Shown here: piece after piece, positions 549-39,559 of the stretch
How positions within the stretch are numbered: position 1 is the stretch's first letter
Layout of the letters: every line of letters begins with the position of its first letter
Assembly: GCA_026705025.1 (NCBI GenBank)
Contig: JAPPBN010000045.1
Coordinates: forward strand, 162,166-226,165
DNA from: Chloroflexota bacterium
Lineage (GTDB): Bacteria > Chloroflexota > Dehalococcoidia > Bin125
Direction of reading: 5' to 3'
DNA length: 64,000 nucleotides
Notes under the pieces: generated by a model
What the model was told of the DNA's origin: nothing
Database searches by the model: none
What the model saw: the letters and a program-made list of their open reading frames with translations, nothing else
Position numbers and translations under genes: made by a program

Positions 549-1802
549 CTACGCGCTGAGGTAGGCGCCGATGTCGGGGCCGCCCTCGGTCAGTACGACG
601 CCCGACTCGGCCAGTGCGGCGGTCTGCTCGGCGGTGATGCCCAGCCACTCATCGAGCACAGCGCAGGTGTCCTGGCCGAACAAGGGCGCGTAGCCGTAGA
701 CCCGGCCTGGAGTGCGCGAGAGCTTGAGCGGGGAGGCGGCCATCGTGACGTCACCGGCGACCGGATGGTGCACGGTCGTGATCATTTCTCTGGCTGCAAT
801 CTGTTCTTGCTGAACGGCCTGGCCGATCGTATTCAGCGGTCCAATCGGGATGTTGTATTGCTCCAGGGTGGTCACCCAGTGGTTGGTCGTCTGTCCGCGC
901 GTGGCCTCGAACAGCAGCGGCTCCAGCTCCGCATGATTCTCAGTTCGCTTGAACGACGTGTCGAAGCGTGGATCACCGACCAGCTCCGGTAGTCCCAACT
1001 CCGCGCAGAACAACTCCCACTGGTTGTCGACGCCCCACGAGAGCGCGACGACCATCCAGCCGTCGGCGGTGGGGAATGCCTGGAACGGCGTTGCAGATGG
1101 ATGCCTGGTGCCCAGCGGGCCGGGCTCCTTGCCGGTTGAAAAGTAGCGCGCGACCGCGTTCTCGAGGATGGAGATCTGGCAATCCAACATGGAAATGTCG
1201 ACCGATTGGCCCATGCCGCTGAGATCGCGTTCGCGAAGCGCCGCGAGGATGCCGATCGCGGTGTAGAAGCCGCCGCAAATGTCCCCGATGGAAGTGCCTG
1301 GTCGTGCGGGAGGTTCGTCCGGATAGCCGGTGATGCTCATGACGCCGCCCATTCCCTGCACGATGATGTCCAGCGCGGGCTTGTTGCGAAGCGGTCCGGT
1401 TTGACCGAACCCGGAGGTGGAGGCAAACACCAGGCGAGGATTGCGTTCGAGCAACGCGTCGGGACCGATGCCGAGCTTGTCCATCACGCCGGGGGTGAAG
1501 TTTTCCATCACGACGTCGGCCTCGTCGACCAGGCGCAGGAAGAGGTTGCGGCCCTCGTCGGAGCGCAAATCAATCGAGATGCTGCGTTTCCCGCGATTAA
1601 CCGACTGGAAGTACATCGACTCGTTGTTGACGAACGGCCCGGTCGTCCGGGCGACGTCGCCATGGGGCGGTCGTTCGACCTTGACGACCTCGGCCCCAAG
1701 GTCGCAGAGGATCATCGCCGCGTACGGTCCGGCCAGCACCCACGTCAGATCGAGAACGCGGATCCCGGCCAGGGGGCCTGGAGGATTCACATTGTTGGTC
1801 AT
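549..1802 (-). CDS. Family III CoA-transferase (CaiB/BaiF family)
   Basis: Translation from MTNNVNPPGPLAGIRVLDLTWVLAGPYAAMILCDLGAEVVKVE... is the typical CaiB/BaiF N-terminal glycine-rich fold. ATG at 1802 preceded by AGGAGC. The longer track ORF start at 1946 is rejected. Confidence 0.85.
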   Translation of the reverse strand: MTNNVNPPGPLAGIRVLDLTWVLAGPYAAMILCDLGAEVVKVERPPHGDVARTTGPFVNNESMYFQSVNRGKRSISIDLRSDEGRNLFLRLVDEADVVMENFTPGVMDKLGIGPDALLERNPRLVFASTSGFGQTGPLRNKPALDIIVQGMGGVMSITGYPDEPPARPGTSIGDICGGFYTAIGILAALRERDLSGMGQSVDISMLDCQISILENAVARYFSTGKEPGPLGTRHPSATPFQAFPTADGWMVVALSWGVDNQWELFCAELGLPELVGDPRFDTSFKRTENHAELEPLLFEATRGQTTNHWVTTLEQYNIPIGPLNTIGQAVQQEQIAAREMITTVHHPVAGDVTMAASPLKLSRTPGRVYGYAPLFGQDTCAVLDEWLGITAEQTAALAESGVVLTEGGPDIGAYLSA

Positions 1803-27565: not shown

Positions 27566-28930
27566 CTAGCGAACCGCCACAAGCTGTTGGCTCACTTCAC
27601 GAGCTCGCTGAGCCTGGCTGCGGGCGATCTCTGCGCAGGCGCCGGTGTATGTTGCCGGGTCCAGCAACTGATCGAGTTCAGCTTCGGACAAGTGCTGGCG
27701 AACCTCTCGGTCGGCGATCAGCAGGTCGCGGAAGGCGACCTCCTGCACGGCGGCGTCCTGCGCGTGTTCGTAGACGACGTCGTGGGCGCGCTGGCGACCC
27801 ACTTTCTCGCCCAGCGCCAGCATGATGCGCTCGCTCATGATCAGCCCGCCGGAGAGTTCGAGATTGGCTCGCATCCGTTCGGGTCGTACGTCGATGCCGT
27901 CGAACAGCAGGATCATCCGCGCGAGGATGTCGCCGACCAGTTCAATGGATCCTTGAACGACGCGCTCGACCATGACGCTGGTCGATCCGTCGGCTTCATG
28001 TTCGGTGCGCATCGCGTCGAGCGCCAGCGGGAACAGGGTCGTGACCTGGGCTGCGGCCGCGCGGATGTCCTGAGAGAGCTTCGGGTTGCGCTTCTGCGGC
28101 ATCGTGCTGCTGCCGACGGTGCCCGGCGGGACCGGTTCCTCGATTTCGCCGAATTCGGGCTTCATCAGGGTGTAGGTCTCGTCGGCGATCTTGCGGCACG
28201 TTGCGGCAAGCATCGCAAGGATCGCGGCATATTCGGCGTGGTGGTCGTGGCTGGTGCGGCCAGGCACGGGCATGGGCAGGAGGTCCAGATGCTTCGCCAT
28301 GCCGGCCTGGACATCCAGTCCGGGCGCGCCGAACGATGCCAGACTGCCCGCTGCGCCGCCCAGCATGGCAACGAAGACGCGCGGCTCGGCATCGTGTAGG
28401 CGTTCGACATGACGGCAAAGCTCGTCGATCCAGGCGCCCACCTTGTAGCCGAATGTGGACGGAACGGCGTGCTGGCCGTGTGTCCGGCCGGCGCAGGGGT
28501 CGTCGGCATGTCGCTCGGCGATTGGCGCGAGCAGTGACAACACCTGACCGATCTGGCCGAGGATGATCGAATGAGCCTGGCGCAGTTGCAGGATGTCGCC
28601 CGTCTGGGTGATGTTCTGGGTCGTCGCACCCCAATGGACATAACCGCCGACTTCTCCGCCGAGTATCCGGTCGAGCTCCCAGATCAACGGCACCAGTGGG
28701 TGCGCCGTCACGGCCAGGCCGGCCTCGATGTTGTCGACGTCGAGTAACTCGAGCCGGCAGTGATTGGCAATCTCAACCGCAGCGTCGGCGGGAATCACGT
28801 CGAGTTCCGCCTCGGCGCGGGCCAACGCTGCCTCAACGTCGAGCCAGGCCTGCCAGCGAGCTTCGCGGGTGAACAACTGACGGATTCCCGGATCGGGGAC
28901 TCGGGCGGCGGTCGGTCGGTGCTGCATCAT
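27566..28930 (-). CDS. Fumarate-lyase superfamily enzyme (3-carboxy-cis,cis-muconate cycloisomerase / adenylosuccinate-lyase-like)
   Basis: Signature GSSTMPQKRNP (class II fumarase/aspartase family loop) and the surrounding fold; 454 aa. Exact substrate cannot be assigned. Confidence 0.8.
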   Translation of the reverse strand: MMQHRPTAARVPDPGIRQLFTREARWQAWLDVEAALARAEAELDVIPADAAVEIANHCRLELLDVDNIEAGLAVTAHPLVPLIWELDRILGGEVGGYVHWGATTQNITQTGDILQLRQAHSIILGQIGQVLSLLAPIAERHADDPCAGRTHGQHAVPSTFGYKVGAWIDELCRHVERLHDAEPRVFVAMLGGAAGSLASFGAPGLDVQAGMAKHLDLLPMPVPGRTSHDHHAEYAAILAMLAATCRKIADETYTLMKPEFGEIEEPVPPGTVGSSTMPQKRNPKLSQDIRAAAAQVTTLFPLALDAMRTEHEADGSTSVMVERVVQGSIELVGDILARMILLFDGIDVRPERMRANLELSGGLIMSERIMLALGEKVGRQRAHDVVYEHAQDAAVQEVAFRDLLIADREVRQHLSEAELDQLLDPATYTGACAEIARSQAQRAREVSQQLVAVR

Positions 28931-28987
28931 CGGCTCCCTCTTGCGCGGCAGGTAGGATCGGACTGCAAGCTAACGAAGGATTTGACT

Positions 28988-30202
28988 ATGGTTGCTCCGC
29001 TTGAGGGAATTCGCGTGATCGAGGCGGCGAACTGGCTGGCAGCGCCGTCGGCGGCGGCCCTGATGGCCGACCTCGGCGCCGATGTCGTCAAGATCGAGAA
29101 TCCCGTGGGAGACGCCTGGCGCACGACGCTGATGCGCGGTCGCAAACCGGATTTCGATCCCGAGACTGACGTCGACGCAGCGTACGAACTGGACAATCGC
29201 GGCAAACGGGGCGTGGCGTTGTCGCTTGAGGCGCCGGGCGCGAGCGACGTGGTCAAACGCATGGTCGCCGAGGCGGACATCTTCATCACCAACCTCACAG
29301 CGCCGCGAATCGCCCGGTACGACCTGTCCTGGGAGTCGCTGAAGCAAGTCAATCCCAGACTGATCTACGTCGTCTTGACCGGGTATGGCACGCGCGGACC
29401 CGACAACGCCATGACCGCCTTCGACTACTCCGCGTTCTGGTCGAGGTCAGGGATCATGAGCTTGATCGGCGAACCGGACGGTCCGCCGATGCCCTGCCGT
29501 CCTGGTCAGGGCGACCACGCGACGGCACTCAATCTGCTGTCGGGAACATTGGCCGCTCTACGCCTTCGCGATCTGACCGGTGAGGGGCAATTCGTCGAAG
29601 TGACGCTGCAGCGCACGGGCGCATGGACGATTGGGGCCGATGTTGCGACGTCGCTCATCCTGGAAGATCAACCGCCGCGAATCGATCGGGTGCAGCCCGG
29701 CAATCCGATGTTCAACTCCTACGAGACGGCGGACGGCCGCTGGCTGATGTTGGTGATGCCGACGGGCGATCGCTACTGGCATCCGCTCTGCCGGGCATTG
29801 GAACAGCCGGAGTGGAGCGAGGACGAACGCTTTTCGTCGTTGATGGGACGGATGGAACACACTTCCGAACTGACCGGGGCCATGCGCGAAGTGTTCAGCT
29901 CAAAGACGCTCGCGGAGTGGACGCCGCTGCTTAATGTCGAAGGACTGACCTGGGCGCCGGTGGCGGAGTTGCCGGAGGTGATTGACGACCCGCAGATGGA
30001 AGCGATGAACGCCTGGACCGAGATCAATGGCCCAGAAGGGCCGTTCCGGACGTTGAACACGCCATTCGACATTGCCGGAGCGGACGTCGGGCCGCGCGGA
30101 CCGGCTCCGAAGACGGGTCAACACACGCATGAGGTGTTGCAAGAGTTGGGACTGTCGGACGACGAGTTGGCGGAACTGGCCGCCAGTGGTGCGCTCGGCT
30201 GA
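28988..30202 (+). CDS. Family III CoA-transferase (CaiB/BaiF family)
   Basis: MVAPLEGIRVIEAANWLAAPSAAALMADLGADVVKIENP… CaiB fold. ATG at 28988 preceded by GAAGGA; the track start at 28760 is rejected. Confidence 0.85.
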   Translation: MVAPLEGIRVIEAANWLAAPSAAALMADLGADVVKIENPVGDAWRTTLMRGRKPDFDPETDVDAAYELDNRGKRGVALSLEAPGASDVVKRMVAEADIFITNLTAPRIARYDLSWESLKQVNPRLIYVVLTGYGTRGPDNAMTAFDYSAFWSRSGIMSLIGEPDGPPMPCRPGQGDHATALNLLSGTLAALRLRDLTGEGQFVEVTLQRTGAWTIGADVATSLILEDQPPRIDRVQPGNPMFNSYETADGRWLMLVMPTGDRYWHPLCRALEQPEWSEDERFSSLMGRMEHTSELTGAMREVFSSKTLAEWTPLLNVEGLTWAPVAELPEVIDDPQMEAMNAWTEINGPEGPFRTLNTPFDIAGADVGPRGPAPKTGQHTHEVLQELGLSDDELAELAASGALG

Positions 30203-30233: not shown

Positions 30234-31382
30234 GTGAGTGAAGAACTCGACCTCATCGTCAATGCGGTCCGTCGTTTCGTCCGGCGCGAGATCTGGCTCG
30301 AGGAGAAGCGAATCGATTCGAACGCTCCGCGGCTCCCGGTCGATACCCACGCGAAGCTGCTGAATCGCGCTGCCGAATTGGACATCGCCCCGCTGATGGC
30401 GCCCCGCGGGTCGGTCGACGGACCGCAAATCGACCTACCCGACGCTGATCGATTGCGGATCGCGGAGGAGTTGTCCCAGCACCGTGCGGGCGTGATCAAC
30501 CCTGCGTACGGACTGTTCGATCCGGATCCGCCGCCACAGCTGTACGCAGCCACCGAGGACCAACAGGAGCGTTTTCTCCTTCCAATGCTTCGGCGCGAAG
30601 TTACGTGCTTCCGAGGCCTCGACGATCCTGATCTCGCCTTGCTGCCGGTCGACGGAGTCCGCATCCGTGCACAGAAACATCCGAAGGGATGGATGCTCGA
30701 CGGCACGAAGTTGTTCGTGGCCGACGCCTCAGACGCGGCCTTCGGCATCGTGTACGCAAACACGGAGGAGGTCCCGGGAGAGCGCGATGGGGTATCGGCA
30801 GTCGTCGTTGAAACCGATCGCGTGGGATTCCAGCGTTGGCGTCCCTGGCCGACCATCGCGGTGGGGCGGGACACCATGGAGATCAATCTGTCGGCCGTGA
30901 AAGTGCCGGAGTCGAATCTGCTGGGCGAGCCGGGCCGTGGTCCGGCGTTCGCGAACGATCTGGTGCTGCGCCGACGGCTGTTCACGGCTGCGCATCTGAC
31001 CGGAATTGCCTCAGCGGCTCAGGACATGTGCCGCGGCGTCGTATGGTCGCGGCGAGAGCACGGCGCGCCACTGGCCCAGGGCGAGCGGGCGCGCCTGGCG
31101 CTCGCCGACAATGAAATCGAGGTCGCTGCTGCTCGTGTCCTGTATCTGTCTGCAGCGGATCGGACGGAAGAATTGGCCCTGGCGGCGACGGCGAACGCGG
31201 TCGGGATGGCCACGGTGGTGGTTGACCGTGCCATGGACCTGCACGGCGTCGCCGGAGGTTCGGCTGATTTGCCCCTGGAACGCTGGGCACGGGAACTGGG
31301 CTGGCAACGACTCAGTCTCGGCGGAACAGTTCAGGCAAAGCTGACCATTGCGCAGCGCCTGATCTCGACCTTCAAGAAGTGA
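30234..31382 (+). CDS. Acyl-CoA dehydrogenase family protein (apparently lacking the canonical YEGT catalytic glutamate)
   Basis: ACAD N-terminal helical domain (LDLIVNAVRRFVRREI…), middle beta domain and C-terminal helical domain. Where YEGT is expected the sequence reads QRLSLGGTVQAKL. GTG start. Confidence 0.72.
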   Translation: MSEELDLIVNAVRRFVRREIWLEEKRIDSNAPRLPVDTHAKLLNRAAELDIAPLMAPRGSVDGPQIDLPDADRLRIAEELSQHRAGVINPAYGLFDPDPPPQLYAATEDQQERFLLPMLRREVTCFRGLDDPDLALLPVDGVRIRAQKHPKGWMLDGTKLFVADASDAAFGIVYANTEEVPGERDGVSAVVVETDRVGFQRWRPWPTIAVGRDTMEINLSAVKVPESNLLGEPGRGPAFANDLVLRRRLFTAAHLTGIASAAQDMCRGVVWSRREHGAPLAQGERARLALADNEIEVAAARVLYLSAADRTEELALAATANAVGMATVVVDRAMDLHGVAGGSADLPLERWARELGWQRLSLGGTVQAKLTIAQRLISTFKK

Positions 31383-32565
31383 TATCCGGCAGCGGATCAA
31401 GCGCGGCCGACGCGATGACCTCCAAGCCGCGCGGCGTGATGGGCGGGTTGTGCAGCGGGCCCCGGACGTCGCGGTAGTAGCGCTCCAGCGGCTGCGATCG
31501 ATGCAGGGAGATTCCGCCGACCAGCCTCATGCAGCGATCGACGATGTCGACCGCGGTATCGCCGGTGTGCAACTTGGCCGCGGCAACGCGCGGGCCGAGT
31601 TTGAATCTGGACTCGGCGTCGAGTTGGTCCCAGGCTGAAGCCGTCTCATGCAGGAGCGCCCGGGCCGACATGATTCGCAGATCGATTTCGCCTACTTGCG
31701 CGCGAACGGTTGGCAGACCGCCGATCACGCCCGGCGCTCCGCCGAGGCGGCGGTTGCGGGCGAACTCGACGGTGTAATCGCGCGCTGCCTCGGCCACTCC
31801 GAGCGACGCGGCGGAGACCAGCAGGGCGAACCAGGCAAAGTCCCCGTGCCGTTGTCCGGCTTTCGCCGGATCTTGCCGGACCAGGAATTCGTCGTCCGTG
31901 ATGGGCACGTCCTCGAACCAGACGTCGTGAGAGCCGGTTGAGCGCAAGCCGACCACGTCCCAGGTTTCTTCGATCCGCAGACCTGGTGAATCGCGGTGCA
32001 CGGCGACACGCGCGAGCATTCCGGAACCGTCCTCAACCGCGCAATAGGTCAGAAACCAGGTGAGATCGGGCGCGAGGGTCGTGAACGACTTGCGTCCGTT
32101 GATCAGCCAACAACCCGGACCGTCGGGAGTGAGCGCGGTCTGAGGGCGGCCGCCGCCCTGGGGTGACCCGAGTTCGGGCTCGGAAGCGACCTGGTTGCAG
32201 AGCGCGCCCTCTTCAATGATGGAAAGGAAGATCCGTTCGCGCAACGGCTCCGGCCACGAGCGATTCGAGCGCTCGGAGCCGACCGACATCAGGTGCATGC
32301 CACAGGCGAAGGCGAGAGCCATATCGACCTTGGCCAGCGCGGTTTGCGCCGCGACCAGGTCGGCCAGCGAGCACTCTTCGCCGCCGTATTCGCGTGGAAT
32401 CGGCGCGGCGATCCAGCCGATGTCGCGCAGCAACTGGAACGACGCGAACGGGAAGCTGGCGTCGCGGTCGTGACTTTCCGCGTACCCGGCGAGGGTCGGC
32501 AGATGCGGATCGAGCCGCTCGATCAATGCTCGCCCGGCGTCGTTGGTTGGCGGAACGGGCGGCAT
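31372..32565 (-). CDS. Acyl-CoA dehydrogenase-fold flavoprotein (SfnB/DszC-like ACAD type 2 candidate)
   Basis: 397 aa with ACAD-like three-domain organisation and no YEGT glutamate (…LERYYRDVRGPLHNPP…). Convergent with, and overlapping the end of, the preceding ACAD gene. Confidence 0.68.
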   Translation of the reverse strand: MPPVPPTNDAGRALIERLDPHLPTLAGYAESHDRDASFPFASFQLLRDIGWIAAPIPREYGGEECSLADLVAAQTALAKVDMALAFACGMHLMSVGSERSNRSWPEPLRERIFLSIIEEGALCNQVASEPELGSPQGGGRPQTALTPDGPGCWLINGRKSFTTLAPDLTWFLTYCAVEDGSGMLARVAVHRDSPGLRIEETWDVVGLRSTGSHDVWFEDVPITDDEFLVRQDPAKAGQRHGDFAWFALLVSAASLGVAEAARDYTVEFARNRRLGGAPGVIGGLPTVRAQVGEIDLRIMSARALLHETASAWDQLDAESRFKLGPRVAAAKLHTGDTAVDIVDRCMRLVGGISLHRSQPLERYYRDVRGPLHNPPITPRGLEVIASAALDPLPDITS

Positions 32566-32586: not shown

Positions 32587-32904
32587 TTAGAGAACGTCGC
32601 GCAGGCGCTTCAGCGCCCGCACGCGAACCTTGCCGCGGTCCAGTGCGGGGCGCGCGGCGATGGTGATGGCTTCACCAGTGGCGGGATTGCGTCCCTGTCG
32701 TTCGGGCCGCGCCGACTGCGAGACGATGTCGACCTTGATCAAACCGGCGACGGTGGCAGAACCCGGCCCGCCGACTGACAGATCTTCGATCACAGCATCC
32801 GCCAGCGCATCCAGCACCTCGTTCACATCCTGGCTGCGGATTCCTGTCTTTGCTTCGATCGCCTTGGCCATCTGAGCCTTGGTCTTCGGCTTGGAGTCTG
32901 TCAT
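32587..32904 (-). CDS. hup: HU-family nucleoid-associated DNA-binding protein with Lys-rich N-terminal extension
   Basis: …KAQMAKAIEAKTGIRSQDVNEVLDALADAVIEDL…RPERQGRNPATGEAITIAARPALDRGKVRVR… matches the HU/IHF fold, including the arm motif R-x-G-R-N-P-x-T-G. ATG at 32904 preceded by GGAAAGAGAG. Confidence 0.85.
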   Translation of the reverse strand: MTDSKPKTKAQMAKAIEAKTGIRSQDVNEVLDALADAVIEDLSVGGPGSATVAGLIKVDIVSQSARPERQGRNPATGEAITIAARPALDRGKVRVRALKRLRDVL

Positions 32905-33029
32905 AGTCACTCTCTTTCCATTTGGGCTAGTCAACGATGCGGGCCTTCACTGCTTACGTAGTGTTATCGGCAAGTTCGCATGGGGCAATAGCGTTCGGCA
33001 CCTTTCGATGGGTGAGTTAACGTCCAGCC

Positions 33030-33692
33030 ATGCACTCTATTCGAACCACCCCGATCACTGAAGAACTGGCGAGATATCTCGAAGACACCTCGACGCGAGA
33101 GGACGATGTCTGGCGACGACTGAGAGCGGAGACCGCGGAACTGCCAGCCGGAGGCATGCAGATTGGTCCGGATCAGGCCCGCCTGTTGAGCTGGCTGGCG
33201 AAGCTGGTTGGCGCACGGCGCACTCTTGAGATTGGCACCTTCACCGGAGCGTCGGCGCTGGCTGTTGTTCAGGCGATGCCGGAGGATGGTCGGATGGTCG
33301 CCTGTGATGTGAGCGAGGAGTGGACTTCGATTGCTCGGAAGTACTGGATTGAGGCCGGGGTCCGCCACAAGATTGACCTTCGTCTGGGCCCGGCGTTGGA
33401 CACGTTGGCCGCGCTGGGCCGAGAGGGAGGTGGGTTGTTCGATTTCGCCTTCATCGACGCGGACAAGGAGCCGATCTGGAGCTACTACGAGGGTGCGCTG
33501 GCCTTGCTGCGACCGGGAGGCCTGATCGCTGTTGACAACACACTCTGGGGCGGTCAGGTTGCCGACCCGACTGTTCGCGATCCTGACAAGGAGGCGATCC
33601 ACGCCTTCAATCGGCGGATCATCGACGATCCACGAGTCGACGCGGTGCAACTGACGGTTGGAGACGGGCTGACGTTGTTGAGGAAGCTCTAG
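33030..33692 (+). CDS. Class I SAM-dependent O-methyltransferase (family 3, caffeoyl-CoA OMT-like)
   Basis: LEIGTFTGASAL motif I, DFAFIDADK metal/acidic motif and the length and organisation typical of cation-dependent OMTs. Confidence 0.85.
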   Translation: MHSIRTTPITEELARYLEDTSTREDDVWRRLRAETAELPAGGMQIGPDQARLLSWLAKLVGARRTLEIGTFTGASALAVVQAMPEDGRMVACDVSEEWTSIARKYWIEAGVRHKIDLRLGPALDTLAALGREGGGLFDFAFIDADKEPIWSYYEGALALLRPGGLIAVDNTLWGGQVADPTVRDPDKEAIHAFNRRIIDDPRVDAVQLTVGDGLTLLRKL

Positions 33693-33699
33693 AGCGCGT

Positions 33700-34578
33700 T
33701 CAGACGAGTGCGGCAGTTGGCACGTTGTCAGCGACGAGCTCGATCGCGCGCGCGAGCTTACGTTCGCCGATGAACGCCGAGCCACCGTAGAGCGGTCCGA
33801 TTGCTTCGACCGCCTCGAGCGTGGTGAGCGATGTGGTGATCAGGGCAAACGACTCGCGTTCGGCGCGCTGGGCGACGTAGGGCAGCGTCGGTTCGCCGCC
33901 GGCGAGGATCAGGCAGAGCGGCTCGTAGTCCAACGCTCCCAGCGCGATATCGATTCGGTCGTGGCGGGTAATCAGTGTCTTGTCCGGATACTTGCGGAAG
34001 TAGTCCATGCCCTCGTGCGCGCTGACCGGACCGATCACGAGGTCCCGTGAGGCCTCGTCGAAGAGCTCCTCGTCGCCCGACAGCTCGCCCTCAATCGAGG
34101 GAGCAATGTCGCGAACCGTCGGCGCGGCCAAGTGACGGTCCTGTGGAATCGATGCCGCGGCATGGCCGCCCAGATCGGTGATGCGCTGCAGCGCGGCCGG
34201 ACCTCCGTGCTCGGGTACGCCGTTGACGACGACCGCGTCGGGTTGGGTCGAGAGGGCGCGCGAGACGGTGTCGTCGTCGGCTTCGCCGTGGCGGACTACC
34301 AGCACGGTGCGATCCGCTTCAATCGCCTCGGCCTCCAGCGCTTCGACGACCGTGTGGTCGGTGTCGGATGGAATCTCGGAGGCAGAGACTGGTTCCGAGG
34401 CTCCGCGCACGCCATTGACCCTGGCGAGCTGCAGGGCGTCGGCGGCTGCCGAGTCTCCGTCGTCGATTCTGACGAGCCGGACGGTTGCGCCGGTCGCTCG
34501 CAGCGCAGATGCAATTCCCGTGGCGACGACCGATTTACCGTCGCCGGCCAGCGTTGATGTGACAAGAATGCGGGTCAC
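33700..34578 (-). CDS. Stand-alone phosphotransacetylase N-terminal-like protein (BioD-like P-loop + DRTGG domain)
   Basis: N-terminal MTRILVTSTLAGDGKSVVATGIASAL (BioD/CobQ-like P-loop), central DRTGG-like region (…LITRHDRIDIALGAL…) and no PTA_PTB catalytic domain; 292 aa. Confidence 0.65.
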   Translation of the reverse strand: MTRILVTSTLAGDGKSVVATGIASALRATGATVRLVRIDDGDSAAADALQLARVNGVRGASEPVSASEIPSDTDHTVVEALEAEAIEADRTVLVVRHGEADDDTVSRALSTQPDAVVVNGVPEHGGPAALQRITDLGGHAAASIPQDRHLAAPTVRDIAPSIEGELSGDEELFDEASRDLVIGPVSAHEGMDYFRKYPDKTLITRHDRIDIALGALDYEPLCLILAGGEPTLPYVAQRAERESFALITTSLTTLEAVEAIGPLYGGSAFIGERKLARAIELVADNVPTAALV

Positions 34579-34758: not shown

Positions 34759-34989
34759 ATGGCGGAAGAGCAGGGCAGCAGCGGAGATCTGTGGCCGCCT
34801 CCGGCGCCAGACTCGCCTGCCACCCGCCGACGTCGGCCGCCGCCGGAACGGCATGCTCACTGGATCGACCATGAGAATCGGGCCGACGAGCCGCGCGAAG
34901 ATGCGCCTCGCTTGCTCTGGTGGATCCTCGGCGCGCTGCTGATCTTCGGAGTGTTCTCGGTGCTCATCAGAATGTTCCTGGTCCTGTAG
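34759..34989 (+). CDS. Candidate small tail-anchored membrane protein (76 aa)
   Basis: ATG preceded by GGCGGAGAG. Pro/Arg-rich soluble part, then a single C-terminal hydrophobic helix LLWWILGALLIFGVFSVLIRMFLVL. No homology recognised. Confidence 0.3.
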   Translation: MAEEQGSSGDLWPPPAPDSPATRRRRPPPERHAHWIDHENRADEPREDAPRLLWWILGALLIFGVFSVLIRMFLVL

Positions 34990-35098
34990 ACCGCCAATCA
35001 ACAACCTTCGGTATCTTGACTGGCAATCCCTGCGAACCGTGCGGGTGCGTTCGGCACGTCGGTCGGATCGGTCACAGTTTCCGGATCGGAGCATCGAA

Positions 35099-37579
35099 AT
35101 GGCAAGTGAGGCGTCGGACACCCTGCTGGGCGGAGTGCGTGTGATTGATCTGGCGACATCACGGGCCGAGATGACAGGGCGTGTGCTCGCCGACATGGGA
35201 GCAGAGGTGATCAAGGTTGAGCCGCCCTGGGGGACGCCCTCACGCCAGTTAGCCCCATTCAGCGAAGAGGATCCAGAGCGTTCGCTCTACTGGGCGGCTA
35301 TGGGGCTGGGCAAGCGCAGCGTGATCATCGACCTGGACGACGAACAGGGCCGCGCCGGTTTCCGAGCCTTGCTTGGCACTGCCGACGTGCTGATCGAGTC
35401 GTTTGACCCGGGGACGATGGCCGGCTGGGGATTGAGCTACGACGACGTCAAGGATGCCCATCCGGACCTGATCTATGTCTCGGTCACGCCGTACGGCCAG
35501 GACGGTCCTCATGCAGACCGGCCGGCGACGGACCTGACCATCGAGTCGGCCGGGGGCCTGGTCGGTCTACAGGGCGACGGCGATCGTCCGCCGGTGCCGG
35601 TGGGTCTTCCTCAGGCTCCGATTCATGCGGGCGTTCAGGCCGCGGCGGACACGTCGATTGCGCTGCGTGAGCGAGGCCTGTCCGGCCTGGGACAGCATCT
35701 GGACGTGTCGATGCAGGCTGCCGTGGTCTGGACCCTGATGCACGCAACAGGGTTCCCGCCAAACACCGGGGACGATCCGCCGGGCACCTGCGCTCAGCGG
35801 AACATCGGCGGCGACAACATGGGTGGCGCAGTCATGGGGATACATCCCTGTCTCGACGGCTACATCGTGTTCAGCATCGTGCCGGGTGGGCTGGGGCTGC
35901 GGCACTCGACATTGGTCCTGAAGTGGATCGAGGAAGAGGGCGAGCTGATCGGTGAGCTTGAGGGCGCCGACATCGATGAGTGGGCGAAGAATGTCGCTCG
36001 GCTGGTGACGGAGGATCCGGCCGAAGTGGGCCGGCAGGTTCTGATCGCGTCCGACAACATGCATCAGTTCGTCGCCAAGCGGACGATGGCGGAGTGTTTC
36101 TCGCGGGCCGTCCGAGACGGCTTCATGATGGCGCCGCTCTACACGATGGAGGACATTGCCAACGATCAGCACCTGGCTGCTCGGAACTACTGGGTAGACA
36201 TTGACGGGCACCGGTACCCGGGGCCGTTCGCCAAGCTGTCCGAGACCCCCCTGGTGATAGATCGGGCGGCGCCGGCGCTCGGTCAGGACCAACATCTGCT
36301 GACGGAGCTGAACGGCGCTCCGAAACGCGCACGGCGGGCGCCGGTGTCGTCCAACGGCGTGCGCGGTGAAGACGGCGGCGCGCTTTCAGGCGTCAAGATC
36401 GCCGACTTCGCCTGGGTTGGTGTCGGTCCGCTGATCTCGAAGTCGATGGCGGACCACGGCGCGCAGGTGATTCACATCGAGTCGGCGACGCGTCCCGACG
36501 TACTGCGTCTTGGGCCTCCGTTCAAGGACAATGAACCGGGCATGGACCGGGCGCAGTTCATGGCCAACTTCAACTCGTCGAAGCTCGGTGTCGCCTTGCG
36601 GCTCGATACCAGGGAGGGGCTGGAGTACGCCCGGCAGTTGATCGACTGGGCCGATGTGGTGGTCGAGTCGTTCACGCCGGGCACGATGAAGCGGTTCGGA
36701 TTCGACTACGCCACATTGAGCAACGAACGTCCTGAGCTGATCATGCTTAGCACCTGCCTGCGCGGGCAGACCGGACCCGAATCGAGCTACCCGGGATTCG
36801 GTCTGCAGGGGGCCTGCCTCTCCGGCCTGCACCGAATCACCGGTTGGCCCGATCGGCAACCATCGGGGACCTGGGGTGCGTACACCGACTTCATCAACCC
36901 GCGCTTCGGCTCTGGTGCGCTGGCGGCCGCGATCCGTTATCGGGACCGAACCGGCCGAGGCCAGTACATCGATCTGGCACAGACCGAGGCCGGTATCCAC
37001 TTCGCCGCGCCACTGCTGCTCGACTACCTGGAGAACGGCCGGATCGCCGAAGCGGTCGGACATGGATCCATGTACGCGGCGCCGAATGGCGTCTTCCGGG
37101 TGGGCGACGGCGAGCGCTACGTCGCGATCGCGACAGAGACGGCGGAGCAGTGGCATGCGCTGAGAACCGCGACCGGCCTTGAGAACTGGTCGGGCTCGGA
37201 GTACGACGACCTGTCGGCGAGAATCGCCGCGAAGGCAGAGATTGAAGCCGTGATTGCCGAGTGGTGCGCCCCGCAGACGGCTGAGGCGGTGGTCGAGCGG
37301 CTGACCGCGGCCGGAGTGCCCGCGTCGCTCGTCGAGTGGCCGTCCGACCTCTACGAGGATCCGCAACTCACGCATCGTGATTTCTTCGTCACGCTCGACC
37401 ACTCGGTGATGGGGCCGACGCCGTACGACGGACTGGTCACCCGCTTCTCGGGAGGGACGGCGCGTCTGCGCCGTGCCGCGCCGGCGATTGGCGAGCACAC
37501 GCACTATGTGCTCTCGGAGATCCTGTCCGTGCCGGATGAGGAGATCACGGAGGCGTTGGTCGCCGGGGCTCTGCAGTAG
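35099..37579 (+). CDS. Tandem-fused double family III CoA-transferase (two CaiB/BaiF domains in one 827-aa chain)
   Basis: First CaiB domain MASEASDTLLGGVRVIDLATSRAEMTGRVLADMGAEVIKVEPP…; second domain restarts at …LSGVKIADFAWVGVGPLISKSMADHGAQVIHIES…. ATG at 35099; the track start at 35039 is rejected. The antisense ORF 36386..37738 is rejected. Confidence 0.8.
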   Translation: MASEASDTLLGGVRVIDLATSRAEMTGRVLADMGAEVIKVEPPWGTPSRQLAPFSEEDPERSLYWAAMGLGKRSVIIDLDDEQGRAGFRALLGTADVLIESFDPGTMAGWGLSYDDVKDAHPDLIYVSVTPYGQDGPHADRPATDLTIESAGGLVGLQGDGDRPPVPVGLPQAPIHAGVQAAADTSIALRERGLSGLGQHLDVSMQAAVVWTLMHATGFPPNTGDDPPGTCAQRNIGGDNMGGAVMGIHPCLDGYIVFSIVPGGLGLRHSTLVLKWIEEEGELIGELEGADIDEWAKNVARLVTEDPAEVGRQVLIASDNMHQFVAKRTMAECFSRAVRDGFMMAPLYTMEDIANDQHLAARNYWVDIDGHRYPGPFAKLSETPLVIDRAAPALGQDQHLLTELNGAPKRARRAPVSSNGVRGEDGGALSGVKIADFAWVGVGPLISKSMADHGAQVIHIESATRPDVLRLGPPFKDNEPGMDRAQFMANFNSSKLGVALRLDTREGLEYARQLIDWADVVVESFTPGTMKRFGFDYATLSNERPELIMLSTCLRGQTGPESSYPGFGLQGACLSGLHRITGWPDRQPSGTWGAYTDFINPRFGSGALAAAIRYRDRTGRGQYIDLAQTEAGIHFAAPLLLDYLENGRIAEAVGHGSMYAAPNGVFRVGDGERYVAIATETAEQWHALRTATGLENWSGSEYDDLSARIAAKAEIEAVIAEWCAPQTAEAVVERLTAAGVPASLVEWPSDLYEDPQLTHRDFFVTLDHSVMGPTPYDGLVTRFSGGTARLRRAAPAIGEHTHYVLSEILSVPDEEITEALVAGALQ

Positions 37580-37919
37580 GAATCGGTAGAACCCTCGCCG
37601 GAGCACTCTCCCAAAGAGACCCTCGGCTCCGGCCCGCTCGCTTAACCCCCTCTCCCTCTGGGAGAGGGCCGGGGTGAGGGTCCAACCGTTGTTCGCTATC
37701 TGGTCGTGAAGCATCCTCTGTCCCCGAGGGGCCCTCACCCCCCGCCTTCGCGGGGGCAGGCTCTAACCCCCCGCATCAAGTGCGGGGCAGGCTTCTGCCT
37801 CAGGGAGAGGGGACCGGAGTGGGCGCCATCCGTTGGCGAGTTAGGGGTGCGACCACGGTGAATCTCGTGACCATCATCTAAACTGCCTGCGTAGAGACGC
37901 ACAGGGAAGGACTTGTGAG
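37580..37919. repeat. 340-bp intergenic region with at least three GC-rich palindromic hairpins (REP-like cluster)
   Basis: Hairpins ccctctcc-ctctg-ggagaggg, ccccccgcc-ttc-gcgggggca, ccccgca-tcaag-tgcgggg, plus cagggagagggg; related cores to the 6577-6697 cluster. Lies upstream of the thiolase gene start at 37920. Confidence 0.4.
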
Positions 37920-39101
37920 ATGGGCAACCGCACGATGCGCGGCGAAGTGGCGATCATCGGCGTCGGTGAGACGACGTATTACAAGCGGGGACGATCACCC
38001 GATTCCGAATTCAAGCTGGTGATCGAGGCGATCCTCAAGGCCAGCGCCGACGCTGGAATCGACCCGCGTGAGATTGACGGCTTTGCCTCGTACTCCAACG
38101 ACCGCAATGACCCCTCGCGGATTGCGGCGGCGCTGGACATCGCGGACCTGCGCTTCTCCAACATGGAGTGGGGCGGCGGCGGTGGCGGCGGCTCAGCGGC
38201 CTGCGCTCACGCCGCTTCAGCAGTCGCCACTGGTCTCGCCGACACAGTGGTTGTCTTCCGAGGTCTGGCGCAGGGTCAGTTTGGACGTTTCGGGCAGGGC
38301 GCTCGCGTGCCGTACGTGCGCGGCGACCAGGCCTATACGGCGCCGTACGGACTGATGTCGCCGGCGCAGTCCTTCGCCATGCGCGTCCACCGGCTGTACG
38401 AGGACCACGGGATCACTCAGGACACGCTCAAGGCGTGCTCACTGGCGTCGTACCACCACGCACAGAACAACCCGCGCGCGGTGATGTATGGTCGTCCGCT
38501 GACTCCCGAGGACTACGACGCCTCGCGCTGGATCGTGGAGCCCTTCCACCTATTTGACTGCTGCCAGGAGAACGACGGCGCAGCGGCGATGATCTTCGTC
38601 TCGGCCGACCGGGCCAAGGATTACGCCAAGACGCCGGTTTACTTCCTCGGCGGGGCGGTCGGCTCGGGCAACCGCGCCGGCTCGGGTTCGCACAACGCGA
38701 CCGACTACGCCACTTCCAACTTCAAGACGGTCGCGCCGCGCATGTACGACATGGCGCAGGTCAAGCCGGAAGAGGTCGACGTGGCGCAGGTCTACGAGAA
38801 CTTCACCGGCGGTGTCGTGATGAGCATCATCGAGCACGGCCTGACGAGCTACGAAGAGGCCAACGACTTCATTACGTTCGACAACCTGATCGCGCCGAGC
38901 GGCAAGATGCCGATCAACACGAGCGGCGGCAACCTGGCCGAGTGCTACATGCACGGTCTCGAGCTGAACATCGAGGCCGTCCGCCAGGTGCGGGGCGAAT
39001 CCTGCAACCAGGTCGATGACGTCAATGTGTCGCTGGTCGCTTCAGGTCCGATGGTGACGCCGGTGTCCGACATGATCGTCGGTTCAGAGGCGGTGCTCTA
39101 A
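37920..39101 (+). CDS. Thiolase-like protein, SCP-x / lipid-transfer-protein type (second copy)
   Basis: 393 aa; thiolase fold with C-terminal NTSGGNLAECYMHGLE signature. Paralogous to 4276..5478. Immediately followed by a DUF35 gene. Confidence 0.85.
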   Translation: MGNRTMRGEVAIIGVGETTYYKRGRSPDSEFKLVIEAILKASADAGIDPREIDGFASYSNDRNDPSRIAAALDIADLRFSNMEWGGGGGGGSAACAHAASAVATGLADTVVVFRGLAQGQFGRFGQGARVPYVRGDQAYTAPYGLMSPAQSFAMRVHRLYEDHGITQDTLKACSLASYHHAQNNPRAVMYGRPLTPEDYDASRWIVEPFHLFDCCQENDGAAAMIFVSADRAKDYAKTPVYFLGGAVGSGNRAGSGSHNATDYATSNFKTVAPRMYDMAQVKPEEVDVAQVYENFTGGVVMSIIEHGLTSYEEANDFITFDNLIAPSGKMPINTSGGNLAECYMHGLELNIEAVRQVRGESCNQVDDVNVSLVASGPMVTPVSDMIVGSEAVL

Positions 39102-39559
39102 TGGCGAATCCTGGAAGGTACTACCTGGGCGAGGGCATGCCCGCGCCCGCCCCGTCGGTCGACGGACTCGACACCGAGTACTGGGAAGGCATCAAGCAGC
39201 ACAAGCTGTTCGTCCAGCACTGTCACACATGCGACCGACCCCAGTTTGGCCCCGAGTGGGTCTGCCACATCTGTCACAGCTTCGATATGGGCTGGCGTGA
39301 GGTAGAGGGCAACGGACGCATCTACTCCTGGGAGCGCGTCTGGCACCCGGTCCATCCCGCGCTGCAAGACTCCTGCCCCTACCTCGTCGTCCTGGTCGAG
39401 CTGCCGAACCACGAGAACGTCCGAATGGTCGGCAACCTCGTCGGCGACCCGATGCAGACGGTCGAGATCGGCGCGGAAGTTCGTCCTGTCTTCGAGGATC
39501 ACGAGGGGACCGACGAGACCGAACCGTTCACCCTGGTTCACTGGGAAGTTGTCGGGTAG
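39101..39559 (+). CDS. DUF35 family OB-fold/zinc-ribbon protein (second copy)
   Basis: CHTCDRPQFGPEWVCHICHS zinc ribbon plus OB segment; 152 aa. Its start overlaps the thiolase stop (TAATG). Confidence 0.85.
   Translation: MANPGRYYLGEGMPAPAPSVDGLDTEYWEGIKQHKLFVQHCHTCDRPQFGPEWVCHICHSFDMGWREVEGNGRIYSWERVWHPVHPALQDSCPYLVVLVELPNHENVRMVGNLVGDPMQTVEIGAEVRPVFEDHEGTDETEPFTLVHWEVVG

What the first reader, a model, noticed from the sequence alone, without database searches (positions are those of the whole stretch)
35099..37579. Single-chain tandem fusion of two family III CoA-transferase domains
Family III CoA-transferases (CaiB/BaiF/Frc) are obligate interlocked homodimers. Here two complete CaiB-like domains are fused in one 827-aa polypeptide (MASEASDTLLGGVRVIDL… and …LSGVKIADFAWVGVGPLISKS…), which would give a covalent pseudo-heterodimer with two non-identical active sites. 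Such fusions exist sporadically in Actinobacteria but are functionally uncharacterised. Upstream are a stand-alone Pta-N-terminal/DRTGG protein and a small tail-anchored ORF.
Basis: partly seen in the sequence, partly recalled or inferred. Interest (0 to 1): 0.5.

Follow-up and report, generated by a model that had tools for sequence, protein, structure and literature searches.

The report
Single-chain CoA-transferase with one active site
This is a real 826-residue enzyme from a Chloroflexota metagenome-assembled genome in which the two different subunits of a heteromeric family III CoA-transferase are fused into one chain, but only the second half keeps the catalytic aspartate, so it is an uncharacterised member of an already known kind of enzyme.

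Summary
Window 35099-37579 (+) is one uninterrupted 826-codon ORF with two full-length family III CoA-transferase domains joined by a variable ~30-residue linker. It is conserved as a single gene in more than 100 homologues and 80 genomic loci.

- The organism is a Chloroflexota/Dehalococcoidia MAG, not an actinobacterium.
- The halves are not duplicates. They are ~25% identical to each other, but each is ~39% identical to its cognate subunit of split gene pairs, and the best PDB matches are the two chains of benzylsuccinate CoA-transferase BbsEF.
- Only the C-terminal half has the catalytic Asp (Asp597, aligned with E. coli Frc Asp169 and with BbsEF Asp178, which carries a CoA adduct in PDB 9fol). 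The N-terminal half has Pro174 there and never Asp or Glu in 114 close homologues, yet it is as conserved as the catalytic half. One active site per chain is therefore expected, not two.
- Such fusions are neither rare nor wholly uncharacterised. About 127 of the top 150 distinct 50%-identity clusters are fused, and DddD is a characterised tandem fusion.

The gene sits upstream of an Ltp2-type retro-aldolase-like gene and a DUF35 gene. Split pairs in Betaproteobacteria have the same gene order. The substrate is unknown. Interest is modest.

The parts
35099..37579 (+). Whole gene: 826-aa fused family III CoA-transferase (stop codon included)
   Evidence: Uninterrupted ORF; two PF02515 domains; conserved as one ORF in 114 homologues and 80 loci.
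35088..35091 (+). GGAG Shine-Dalgarno-like motif 7 nt before the ATG at 35099
   Evidence: Read directly from the sequence. Homologues begin at the equivalent Met and are 822-826 aa.
35126..36289 (+). N-terminal domain (aa 10-397): non-catalytic pseudo-subunit, similar to BbsEF chain A and EbN1 subunit 1
   Evidence: PF02515 full length. Best PDB sequence hit 9fn0_A, E 1.5e-39. 39% identical to EbN1 subunit 1 versus 25% to its own C-half. Its large domain has 27% invariant columns.
35618..35620 (+). Codon for Pro174, the position where the catalytic Asp would be in the N-terminal domain
   Evidence: Aligns with Frc Asp169, YfdE and CaiB Asp in two MAFFT alignments and with the Asp of 4ed9 in a HMMER alignment. 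Ala54/Ser45/Gly9/Pro3/Gln2, never Asp or Glu, in 114 homologues.
36290..36382 (+). Inter-domain linker (aa 398-428), variable and predicted flexible
   Evidence: 0% invariant columns and entropy 2.16 bits over aa 398-427. pLDDT 60-75.
36383..37501 (+). C-terminal domain (aa 429-801): catalytic subunit-like, similar to BbsEF chain B and EbN1 subunit 2
   Evidence: PF02515 full length. 9fn0_B E 2e-64. Foldseek TM 0.93-0.94, rmsd 1.8-2.1 A to 9fn0_B/D. 39% identical to EbN1 subunit 2.
36887..36889 (+). Codon for Asp597, the predicted catalytic nucleophile
   Evidence: Aligns with E. coli Frc Asp169 and with Asp178 of BbsEF chain B, the residue carrying the CoA adduct in PDB 9fol (title). Invariant in 114 of 114 close homologues and present in 126 of 127 diverse fused representatives.
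37920..39101 (+). Downstream partner: thiolase-fold, Ltp2-type retro-aldolase-like protein (393 aa)
   Evidence: PDB 6ok1_A (Ltp2) E 8e-73 versus BbsB 7pxp_C 2e-15. Tyr at both Ltp2 catalytic positions Tyr294 and Tyr344, motif YENF in place of YDHF (residue roles from PMC12329534). Conserved synteny.
39101..39559 (+). Downstream partner: stand-alone DUF35 (Zn-ribbon plus OB-fold) protein (152 aa)
   Evidence: Pfam zf-ChsH2 and OB_ChsH2_C. PDB 9myr_B and 6ok1_B ChsH2(DUF35). Conserved synteny, and found after split CoA-transferase pairs in Variovorax and Paraburkholderia.

Best explanation
The gene encodes a single-chain version of a heteromeric (BbsEF- or phthalate-type) family III CoA-transferase. 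The C-terminal domain is the catalytic subunit. Its Asp597 would attack the donor acyl-CoA, forming the aspartyl mixed-anhydride and Asp-CoA thioester intermediates typical of the family, and then pass CoA to an incoming carboxylate. The N-terminal domain is a conserved pseudo-subunit without a nucleophile. It supplies the other half of the dimer-type fold and probably part of the substrate pocket, so there is one active site per chain. A flexible ~30-residue linker replaces the intergenic gap of an ancestral two-gene pair and fixes the 1:1 stoichiometry.

Shown here: the architecture, the Asp asymmetry and its conservation, the cognate relationship to split subunit pairs, and the conserved gene order. 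Inferred: that the enzyme activates an as yet unknown organic acid, probably a substituted dicarboxylate or a bulky alicyclic acid. The CoA donor would be succinyl-CoA or the short acyl-CoA released by the downstream Ltp2-type aldolase/DUF35 enzyme. This would form an ATP-independent CoA-recycling loop like BbsEF/BbsAB in benzylsuccinate beta-oxidation.
For: Two full PF02515 domains in one ORF. Asp597 aligns with Frc Asp169 and BbsEF Asp178, while the N-half has Pro174. Asp597 is present in 114 of 114 close homologues and position 174 is never acidic. Among 127 diverse fused representatives, 126 have the C-domain Asp and 12 have Asp or Glu at the N-domain position. Split pairs in A. aromaticum EbN1 and P. 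caribensis show the same pattern, with subunit 1 lacking Asp and subunit 2 having it. Each half is ~39% identical to its cognate EbN1 subunit but 25% to the other half. The N-half large domain is as constrained as the C-half large domain (27% versus 28% invariant columns), and the linker is unconstrained. The AlphaFold model has pLDDT 90.4 and pTM 0.93, and its best structural matches are BbsEF chains. The order CoAT-N, CoAT-C, thiolase-like, DUF35 is conserved in all close Dehalococcoidia loci and with split pairs in Variovorax and Paraburkholderia. The EbN1 pair lies with UbiD, UbiX and TAXI-TRAP genes, the gene set of the experimentally shown succinyl-CoA:o-phthalate CoA-transferase pathway (PMC13040137).
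Against: There are no biochemical data for any member of this subfamily. Model coordinates could not be inspected, so the threading of the two halves and the location of conserved N-half residues relative to Asp597 are inferred. The N-half keeps an invariant polar helix face (Gln172, His176, Gln180, Asp184) that a purely structural role does not obviously require. The pathway link rests on synteny only. In this window a 340-nt gap with an inserted palindromic element separates the gene from the Ltp2-like gene. Hydratase and dehydrogenase genes are not adjacent. More distant fused homologues (52-62% identity) have unrelated neighbours.
Confidence: 0.72

Rival explanations
1. One reading: a covalent pseudo-heterodimer with two different, functional CoA-transferase active sites, one per domain.
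For: Both domains are full-length PF02515 matches and both are under strong constraint. About 10% of diverse fused relatives (12 of 127) do carry Asp or Glu at the N-domain position, so two-site fusions may exist elsewhere.
Against: The N-domain has Pro174 at the nucleophile position, and no Asp or Glu occurs there in 114 of 114 close homologues. It also lacks the Gly-Pro of the first Rossmann-helix motif that all catalytic-type domains retain. Its closest relatives (BbsEF chain A, subunit 1 of the split pairs) lack the Asp too.
Confidence: 0.06
2. It is a DddD-type DMSP CoA-transferase/lyase that makes dimethyl sulfide and 3-hydroxypropionyl-CoA from DMSP.
For: The architecture and size are the same: DddD has two CaiB domains at 1-416 and 439-821 (PMC7174347). 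Some SAR202 Chloroflexi CaiB-type proteins have best Swiss-Prot hits to DddD (PMC5395668). From memory only, DddD's active-site Asp602 also lies in the C-terminal domain.
Against: No ddd-type neighbours (BCCT transporter, alcohol or methylmalonate-semialdehyde dehydrogenases, LysR regulator) lie within about 10 kb. The conserved partners are an Ltp2-like enzyme and DUF35. The best characterised relatives by sequence and structure are BbsEF and the EbN1 pair. No DddD sequence could be obtained, so there is no direct comparison.
Confidence: 0.07
3. It is bifunctional: the nucleophile-less N-terminal domain has acquired a second activity on the CoA-thioester product, such as lyase, isomerase or racemase chemistry, as the family III fold does in alpha-methylacyl-CoA racemase and as DddD combines transferase and lyase steps.
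For: There is an invariant polar stripe (Gln172, His176, Gln180, Asp184) on the helix that normally follows the catalytic Asp, with Asp184 specific to this subfamily. Asp145/Glu149 are conserved nearby. Conservation of the N large domain equals that of the catalytic domain.
Against: The same level of conservation is expected for an obligate structural and pocket-forming partner. Loss of the Gly-Pro motif argues against a normal CoA site. BbsEF chain A and subunit 1 of the split pairs lack His176 and Asp184, and they are not known to be catalytic.
Confidence: 0.12
4. It is an artefact: two adjacent genes mis-joined by a sequencing or assembly error.
For: Split two-gene versions exist in Proteobacteria, in one case separated by only 18 nt in the same frame.
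Against: The ORF is continuous here and in 80 independently assembled loci, including complete chromosomes. The linker is translated and length-conserved in 114 homologues.
Confidence: 0.01

Closest known systems
Succinyl-CoA:(R)-benzylsuccinate CoA-transferase BbsEF (PDB 9fn0, 9fol)
   Same: It is a family III enzyme built from two divergent subunits of which only one carries the catalytic Asp (Asp178, CoA adduct in 9fol). The window's N-half matches chain A (E 1.5e-39) and the C-half matches chain B (E 2e-64; model TM 0.93-0.94). Asp597 aligns with Asp178. The gene is accompanied by a thiolase-fold protein and a DUF35 protein, as with BbsB and BbsA.
   Different: BbsEF has two separate polypeptides, whereas here there is one chain with a linker. 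Identity is only 26-34%. No bss or other bbs genes are nearby. The thiolase-fold partner resembles the aldolase Ltp2 far more than the thiolase BbsB (E 8e-73 versus 2e-15). The host is an uncultured Chloroflexota MAG, not an anaerobic toluene degrader.
Two-gene CoA-transferase of the Aromatoleum aromaticum EbN1 plasmid phthalate cluster (succinyl-CoA:o-phthalate CoA-transferase)
   Same: It is the closest identifiable relative in annotated records: 37.6% identity over both halves in the same order, ~39% per half, with the same Asp asymmetry (subunit 1 has Tyr, subunit 2 has Asp).
   Different: The genes are split, overlapping by 4 nt. They are linked to UbiD/UbiX decarboxylase and TAXI-TRAP genes, not to an Ltp2-like/DUF35 pair. 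That this exact gene pair is the characterised enzyme is inferred from cluster content plus the review, and was not shown here.
DddD, the DMSP CoA-transferase/lyase of Marinomonas, Endozoicomonas and others
   Same: It is the characterised precedent for a single polypeptide of ~830 aa with two tandem CaiB-type domains (1-416 and 439-821 versus 10-397 and 429-801 here).
   Different: The genomic context is different (no ddd operon genes). Sequence relatedness was not testable here. DddD also performs a lyase step, for which there is no evidence in this protein.
Homodimeric family III CoA-transferases (Frc/YfdW, YfdE, CaiB, SUGCT)
   Same: Same fold and the same catalytic Asp position in the C-terminal domain. 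Foldseek TM 0.8-0.92 per domain.
   Different: Those are homodimers with two equivalent active sites. This protein is a fused pseudo-heterodimer with one. Identity is 20-29%.

Membership tests
Family III CoA-transferase (Pfam PF02515; CaiB/BaiF/Frc) | Full-length CoA_transf_3 domain | tested here: met
   Both halves match the profile end to end: aa 10-397 on profile 1-365, and aa 429-801 on profile 1-366.
Family III CoA-transferase (Pfam PF02515; CaiB/BaiF/Frc) | Catalytic Asp equivalent to Frc Asp169, in the C-terminal domain | tested here: met
   Asp597 aligns with Frc, YfdE and CaiB Asp and with BbsEF Asp178. It is invariant in 114 close homologues.
Family III CoA-transferase (Pfam PF02515; CaiB/BaiF/Frc) | Catalytic Asp equivalent to Frc Asp169, in the N-terminal domain | tested here: not met
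   Pro174 occupies this position, and it is never Asp or Glu in 114 homologues.
Family III CoA-transferase (Pfam PF02515; CaiB/BaiF/Frc) | Interlocked ring-like dimer assembly | tested here: inconclusive
   The whole-chain AlphaFold model has pTM 0.93, and each half superposes on family III chains at TM 0.87-0.94.
Family III CoA-transferase (Pfam PF02515; CaiB/BaiF/Frc) | CoA-transfer activity through an aspartyl anhydride/thioester intermediate | not testable with these tools
   This needs enzymology.
Heteromeric BbsEF/phthalate-type family III CoA-transferase | Two divergent subunit types, of which only one has the nucleophile | tested here: met
   N-half and C-half are 25% identical to each other. 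Asp is present only in the C-half, and the pattern is the same in 9fn0 chains A/B and in the EbN1 and P. caribensis pairs.
Heteromeric BbsEF/phthalate-type family III CoA-transferase | Each half is more similar to its cognate subunit than to the other half | tested here: met
   39% versus 23-25% (EbN1) and 32-34% versus 22-25% (P. caribensis). PDB E-values support the same pairing.
Heteromeric BbsEF/phthalate-type family III CoA-transferase | Subunits encoded as separate polypeptides | tested here: not met
   There is a single ORF with a ~30-residue linker. It is therefore a fused variant of this type, not a member in the strict sense.
Heteromeric BbsEF/phthalate-type family III CoA-transferase | Succinyl-CoA as CoA donor and a substituted dicarboxylate as acceptor | not testable with these tools
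   There are only sub-threshold NCBIfam matches to succinate-glutarate and succinyl-CoA:mesaconate transferases (316 and 289 bits against cut-offs of 750 and 700).
bbs (benzylsuccinate beta-oxidation) operon | Co-located bbsG, bbsH, bbsCD and bbsAB genes, and bss genes | tested here: not met
   The neighbours are an Ltp2-like protein, DUF35, PEP carboxylase, a DRTGG protein, an O-methyltransferase and ACADs. No SDR pair, hydratase or glycyl-radical genes lie within about 10 kb.
DddD DMSP CoA-transferase/lyase | Two tandem CaiB-type domains in one polypeptide of ~830 aa | tested here: met
   compared with the domain positions reported in PMC7174347.
DddD DMSP CoA-transferase/lyase | ddd operon context (BCCT-type DMSP transporter, dddB/dddC-type dehydrogenases, LysR regulator) | tested here: not met
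   None of these families was found among the neighbours. The operon composition is taken from PMC10664990 and PMC7174347.
DddD DMSP CoA-transferase/lyase | Sequence orthology to Marinomonas DddD (A6W2K8) | not testable with these tools
   No DddD sequence could be retrieved. There was no DddD-named hit, afdb50 was unavailable, and the primary paper is not held.

The most novel reading that the evidence does not exclude
The nucleophile-less N-terminal domain is not merely structural. Its subfamily-specific invariant polar helix face (Gln172, His176, Gln180, Asp184) would form a second, repurposed catalytic or substrate-handling site. That would make this abundant Dehalococcoidia enzyme a bifunctional CoA-transferase plus lyase or isomerase, which together with the Ltp2-type aldolase/DUF35 pair cleaves side chains from bulky alicyclic or sterol-like acids without spending ATP.
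Probability: 0.1. Interest if true: 0.6.

Novelty: new member of a known kind. Interest (0 to 1): 0.3.

Why it matters
CaiB/BaiF-type CoA-transferases are one of the most expanded enzyme families in SAR202-type Dehalococcoidia, which are proposed to degrade recalcitrant marine organic matter (PMC5395668). This work makes three practical points.

- A large, widespread subfamily consists of single-chain versions of heteromeric enzymes with one active site. This corrects how such genes should be counted and annotated: one site, not two.
- It names the residue to mutate (Asp597).
- It identifies a conserved four-unit module (pseudo-subunit, catalytic subunit, Ltp2-like aldolase, DUF35) shared with Betaproteobacteria, which could guide substrate discovery.

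It is also a clear example of a heteromer with a pseudoenzyme subunit being fixed by gene fusion. It does not reveal a new mechanism.

Tried and rejected
- **Misplaced catalytic Asp (my error, corrected).** I first took the 'PATDLTI' Asp145 of the N-half to be the catalytic residue and concluded that the C-half was the degenerate one. Counting along E. coli Frc showed that this column is Glu140 and that the true Asp169 column gives the opposite answer.
- **BbsAB-type thiolase as the downstream partner.** Rejected in favour of an Ltp2-type aldolase (6ok1 E 8e-73 versus 7pxp 2e-15; Tyr/Tyr retained).
- **Obtaining a DddD sequence.** This failed: there were no named hits, afdb50 was unavailable, Alcolombri 2014 is not held, and 'Asp602' could not be confirmed in the library.
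- **Rv1866 as a two-domain mycobacterial homologue.** My recollection could not be verified. Only a fused hit on a Rhodococcus plasmid shows that actinobacterial examples exist.
- **BbsEF structure paper.** Not in the searchable library, so which chain is BbsE and which is BbsF is assumed, not shown.
- **Promoter/terminator scan.** Uninformative.
- **Neighbour clustering in distant fused loci.** It found no recurrent partner, so the pathway inference is limited to the close clade and the proteobacterial split pairs.
- **First literature query.** Too loose, and returned nothing useful.
Full report

Yes. The longest ORF is 35039-37579 (+). An ATG at 35099 is preceded by GGAG 7 nt upstream and gives 826 aa with no internal stop. 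Pfam finds CoA_transf_3 (PF02515) twice, each covering the whole profile: aa 10-397 and aa 429-801.

The same single ORF of 820-826 aa is found in 114 full-length homologues at 55-99% identity. It is also found in 80 loci from GTDB species representatives, many of them complete chromosomes. A mis-join or frameshift is therefore excluded.

The window is 100% identical to VXQZ01000052.1, a Chloroflexi MAG (isolate SB0664_bin_20). The relatives are overwhelmingly Dehalococcoidia, not Actinobacteria.

**2. What are the two halves?**

They are not recent duplicates. They share only ~25% identity with each other.

The best solved-structure matches are the two different chains of succinyl-CoA:(R)-benzylsuccinate CoA-transferase BbsEF:
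- The C-half matches 9fn0_B (E 2e-64).
- The N-half matches 9fn0_A (E 1.5e-39).

In annotated plasmids the best matches are pairs of adjacent, separate CoA-transferase genes that align with the N-half and then the C-half, in that order:
- Aromatoleum aromaticum EbN1 plasmid 2 (37.6% identity).
- Variovorax sp. SRS16.
- Paraburkholderia caribensis.

Each half is ~39% identical to its cognate EbN1 subunit. The divergence of the two halves therefore predates the fusion, and the gene is a fused two-subunit enzyme.

The EbN1 pair lies among UbiD, UbiX and TAXI-TRAP genes. That matches the cluster for the experimentally demonstrated succinyl-CoA:o-phthalate CoA-transferase of that strain (PMC13040137).

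**3. One active site or two?**

I aligned both halves with E. coli Frc, YfdE and CaiB, taken from the K-12 record. Counting along Frc puts the catalytic Asp169 in 'AALGDSNTG'.

- In that column the C-half has Asp597 ('GAYTDFINP').
- The N-half has Pro174 ('LPQAPIHAG').
- A second alignment method and the HMMER alignment to 4ed9 agree.
- Asp597 also aligns with Asp178 of BbsEF chain B. PDB entry 9fol is titled 'D178-CoA adduct'.

Conservation of the pattern:
- **Close homologues (114):** Asp597 is invariant. Position 174 is Ala, Ser, Gly, Pro or Gln and never acidic.
- **Diverse fused representatives (127, at 32-50% identity):** the C-domain Asp is present in all but one. The N-domain position is mostly Tyr, Phe or Trp, and 12 carry Asp or Glu.
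- **Split pairs and BbsEF:** subunit 1 of the split pairs and BbsEF chain A lack the Asp, while subunit 2 and chain B have it.
- **Gly-Pro motif:** the N-type domains of the window protein and of the EbN1 and P. caribensis pairs also lack the Gly-Pro at the start of the first Rossmann helix, which all catalytic-type domains keep. The N-domain of the Variovorax fusion keeps it.

The N-half is nevertheless not decaying. Its large domain has 27% invariant columns, against 28% for the catalytic one. The linker (aa 398-427) has none.

The conclusion is a conserved pseudo-subunit plus a catalytic subunit, with one active site per chain.

**4. Fold**

AlphaFold2, run with a 70-sequence alignment, gives pLDDT 90.4 and pTM 0.93 for the whole 826-residue chain. 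The linker at ~400-430 and a loop at ~230-250 have reduced confidence (pLDDT ~60-75), and only residues 1-4 and 241-244 fall below 50. Such a pTM implies a confidently predicted mutual arrangement of the halves.

Foldseek places the C-half on BbsEF chains B/D (TM 0.93-0.94, rmsd 1.8-2.1 A). The N-half matches chain A (TM 0.87), ahead of homodimeric family III enzymes. I could not access coordinates, so the ring threading itself was not inspected.

**5. Context**

Directly downstream are two genes:
- A 393-aa thiolase-fold protein (37920-39101).
- A 152-aa DUF35 Zn-ribbon/OB-fold protein (39101-39559).

The former matches the steroid side-chain retro-aldolase Ltp2 (6ok1_A, E 8e-73) far better than the thiolase BbsB (7pxp_C, 2e-15). 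It keeps Tyr at both Ltp2 catalytic positions, Tyr294 and Tyr344. Its motif is YENF in place of YDHF, with no Cys (residue roles from PMC12329534).

The order DRTGG protein (minus strand), small TM ORF, fused CoA-transferase, Ltp2-like, DUF35 is conserved in nearly all loci at 69% identity or more, mostly followed by PEP carboxylase on the minus strand. Gaps between the fused gene and the Ltp2-like gene are as short as 62-65 nt.

In Variovorax and Paraburkholderia the split pair is followed by a thiolase-like gene and a DUF35 gene in the same order. Variovorax adds enoyl-CoA hydratase and MaoC genes. This four-unit module therefore spans phyla, which supports a functional link.

In more distant fused homologues (52-62% identity) the neighbours vary: ACAD, nitronate monooxygenase, luciferase-like monooxygenase, amidase and amidohydrolase.

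The wider window contains another luciferase-like monooxygenase, amidases, hydrolases, ACADs and two further family III genes. This is typical of the CaiB/BaiF expansion described for SAR202 Chloroflexi (PMC5395668).

**6. Mechanism proposed**

- **Established for the family:** the catalytic Asp attacks the donor acyl-CoA, forms mixed-anhydride and Asp-CoA thioester intermediates, and CoA is then passed to the acceptor carboxylate.
- **Shown here:** only Asp597 can play that role.
- **Inferred:** the N-domain completes the dimer-type fold and the pocket. The fusion fixes the 1:1 stoichiometry. The enzyme activates an unknown acid, using succinyl-CoA or the acyl-CoA released by the Ltp2-like/DUF35 enzyme, by analogy with BbsEF/BbsAB.

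**7. How common and how new?**

A full HMMER scan of 1.84 billion cluster representatives gave 5,639 hits at E of 1e-30 or better. Of the top 150, 127 are 750-900 aa, nearly all aligning with the query over its full length, down to 32% identity. Fused forms also occur in Variovorax (847 aa, 31% identical, same Asp asymmetry), Diaphorobacter, Bosea and Rhodococcus. The architecture is therefore abundant.

A characterised precedent exists. DddD, the DMSP CoA-transferase/lyase, has two CaiB domains at 1-416 and 439-821 (PMC7174347). I recall that its active-site residue is Asp602, but I could not confirm this.

Orthology to DddD could not be tested by sequence. The ddd operon context is absent.

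**8. Verdict**

- It is an uncharacterised member of a known kind: a family III CoA-transferase with a pseudo-subunit, in the fused format already known from DddD.
- What remains unexplained is the invariant polar face Gln172/His176/Gln180/Asp184 of the pseudo-domain. This leaves a small chance of a repurposed second site.

Noticed in passing
window 37920-39101 (+): The Ltp2-like thiolase-fold gene is 88-100% identical at protein level across loci where the adjacent fused CoA-transferase is only 69-88% identical and other neighbours 60-90%, which is unusually strong constraint. Its catalytic motif is YENF (Ltp2 has YDHF, Sal YDCY, SCP-2 thiolases HDCF), so it may be a distinct aldolase subtype.
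   Followed up: partly
window ~37585-37830: A G+C-rich, multiply palindromic ~250-nt element (core GGGAGAGGGCCGGGGTGAGGGT) is inserted between the fused gene and the Ltp2-like gene. It is absent from L006, L007 and L010 (gaps of 65-132 nt), and a related, larger element sits at the same place in L014. Only one copy of the core is in this window. It looks like a small mobile or REP-like insertion.
   Followed up: partly
window 34759-34989 (+): A 76-aa ORF with a hydrophobic C-terminal segment, ~110 nt upstream of the fused gene on the same strand, is conserved (65-98% by tblastn) in about 40 Dehalococcoidia loci. It is probably a real small membrane protein and may be co-transcribed. No Pfam family was tested.
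   Followed up: partly
window 35612-35650 (aa 172-184 of the fused protein): Gln172, His176, Gln180 and Asp184 (spacing i, i+4, i+8, i+12) are all invariant in close homologues. They lie on the helix that in canonical enzymes follows the catalytic Asp. Asp184 is Gly or Ala in almost all other family III sequences examined. The role is unknown.
   Followed up: partly
proteins P0127, P0128, P0162, P0169, P0170, P0237, P0242, P0246, P0259, P0262, P0264, P0270: About 10% of diverse fused representatives carry Asp or Glu at the N-domain nucleophile position and might be genuine two-site enzymes. P0259 appears to have the domain order reversed, with Asp in the first domain and Ala in the second.
   Followed up: no
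L086 (Variovorax sp. SRS16 plasmid 3) 3611-11980: One operon-like cluster holds a fused 847-aa CoA-transferase, an enoyl-CoA hydratase, a split CoA-transferase pair, a thiolase-like gene, a DUF35 gene and MaoC-type dehydratase genes. Fused and split forms therefore coexist side by side in a cultured, tractable organism.
   Followed up: partly
window 28760-30202 (+) and ~624-1778 (-): There are two further single-domain family III CoA-transferase genes in the same 64 kb. The first has an ~80-residue N-terminal extension in the longest ORF, which probably reflects a wrong start. It is followed by two acyl-CoA dehydrogenase genes (30234-31382 +, 31372-32565 -). This block is syntenic with the fused gene in the close clade.
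   Followed up: partly
window 33700-34578 (-): A stand-alone DRTGG plus AAA_26 (Pta N-terminal-like) protein without a phosphotransacetylase catalytic domain, transcribed divergently from the small TM ORF and the CoA-transferase, is conserved in about 40 loci. No NCBIfam match was found. Its function and any link to acyl-CoA metabolism are unknown.
   Followed up: no
window 32587-32934 (-): A 115-aa ORF whose sequence looks HU/IHF-like by eye lies between the ACAD genes and the O-methyltransferase (33030-33692). It is conserved in the close clade but was not tested against domain libraries.
   Followed up: no
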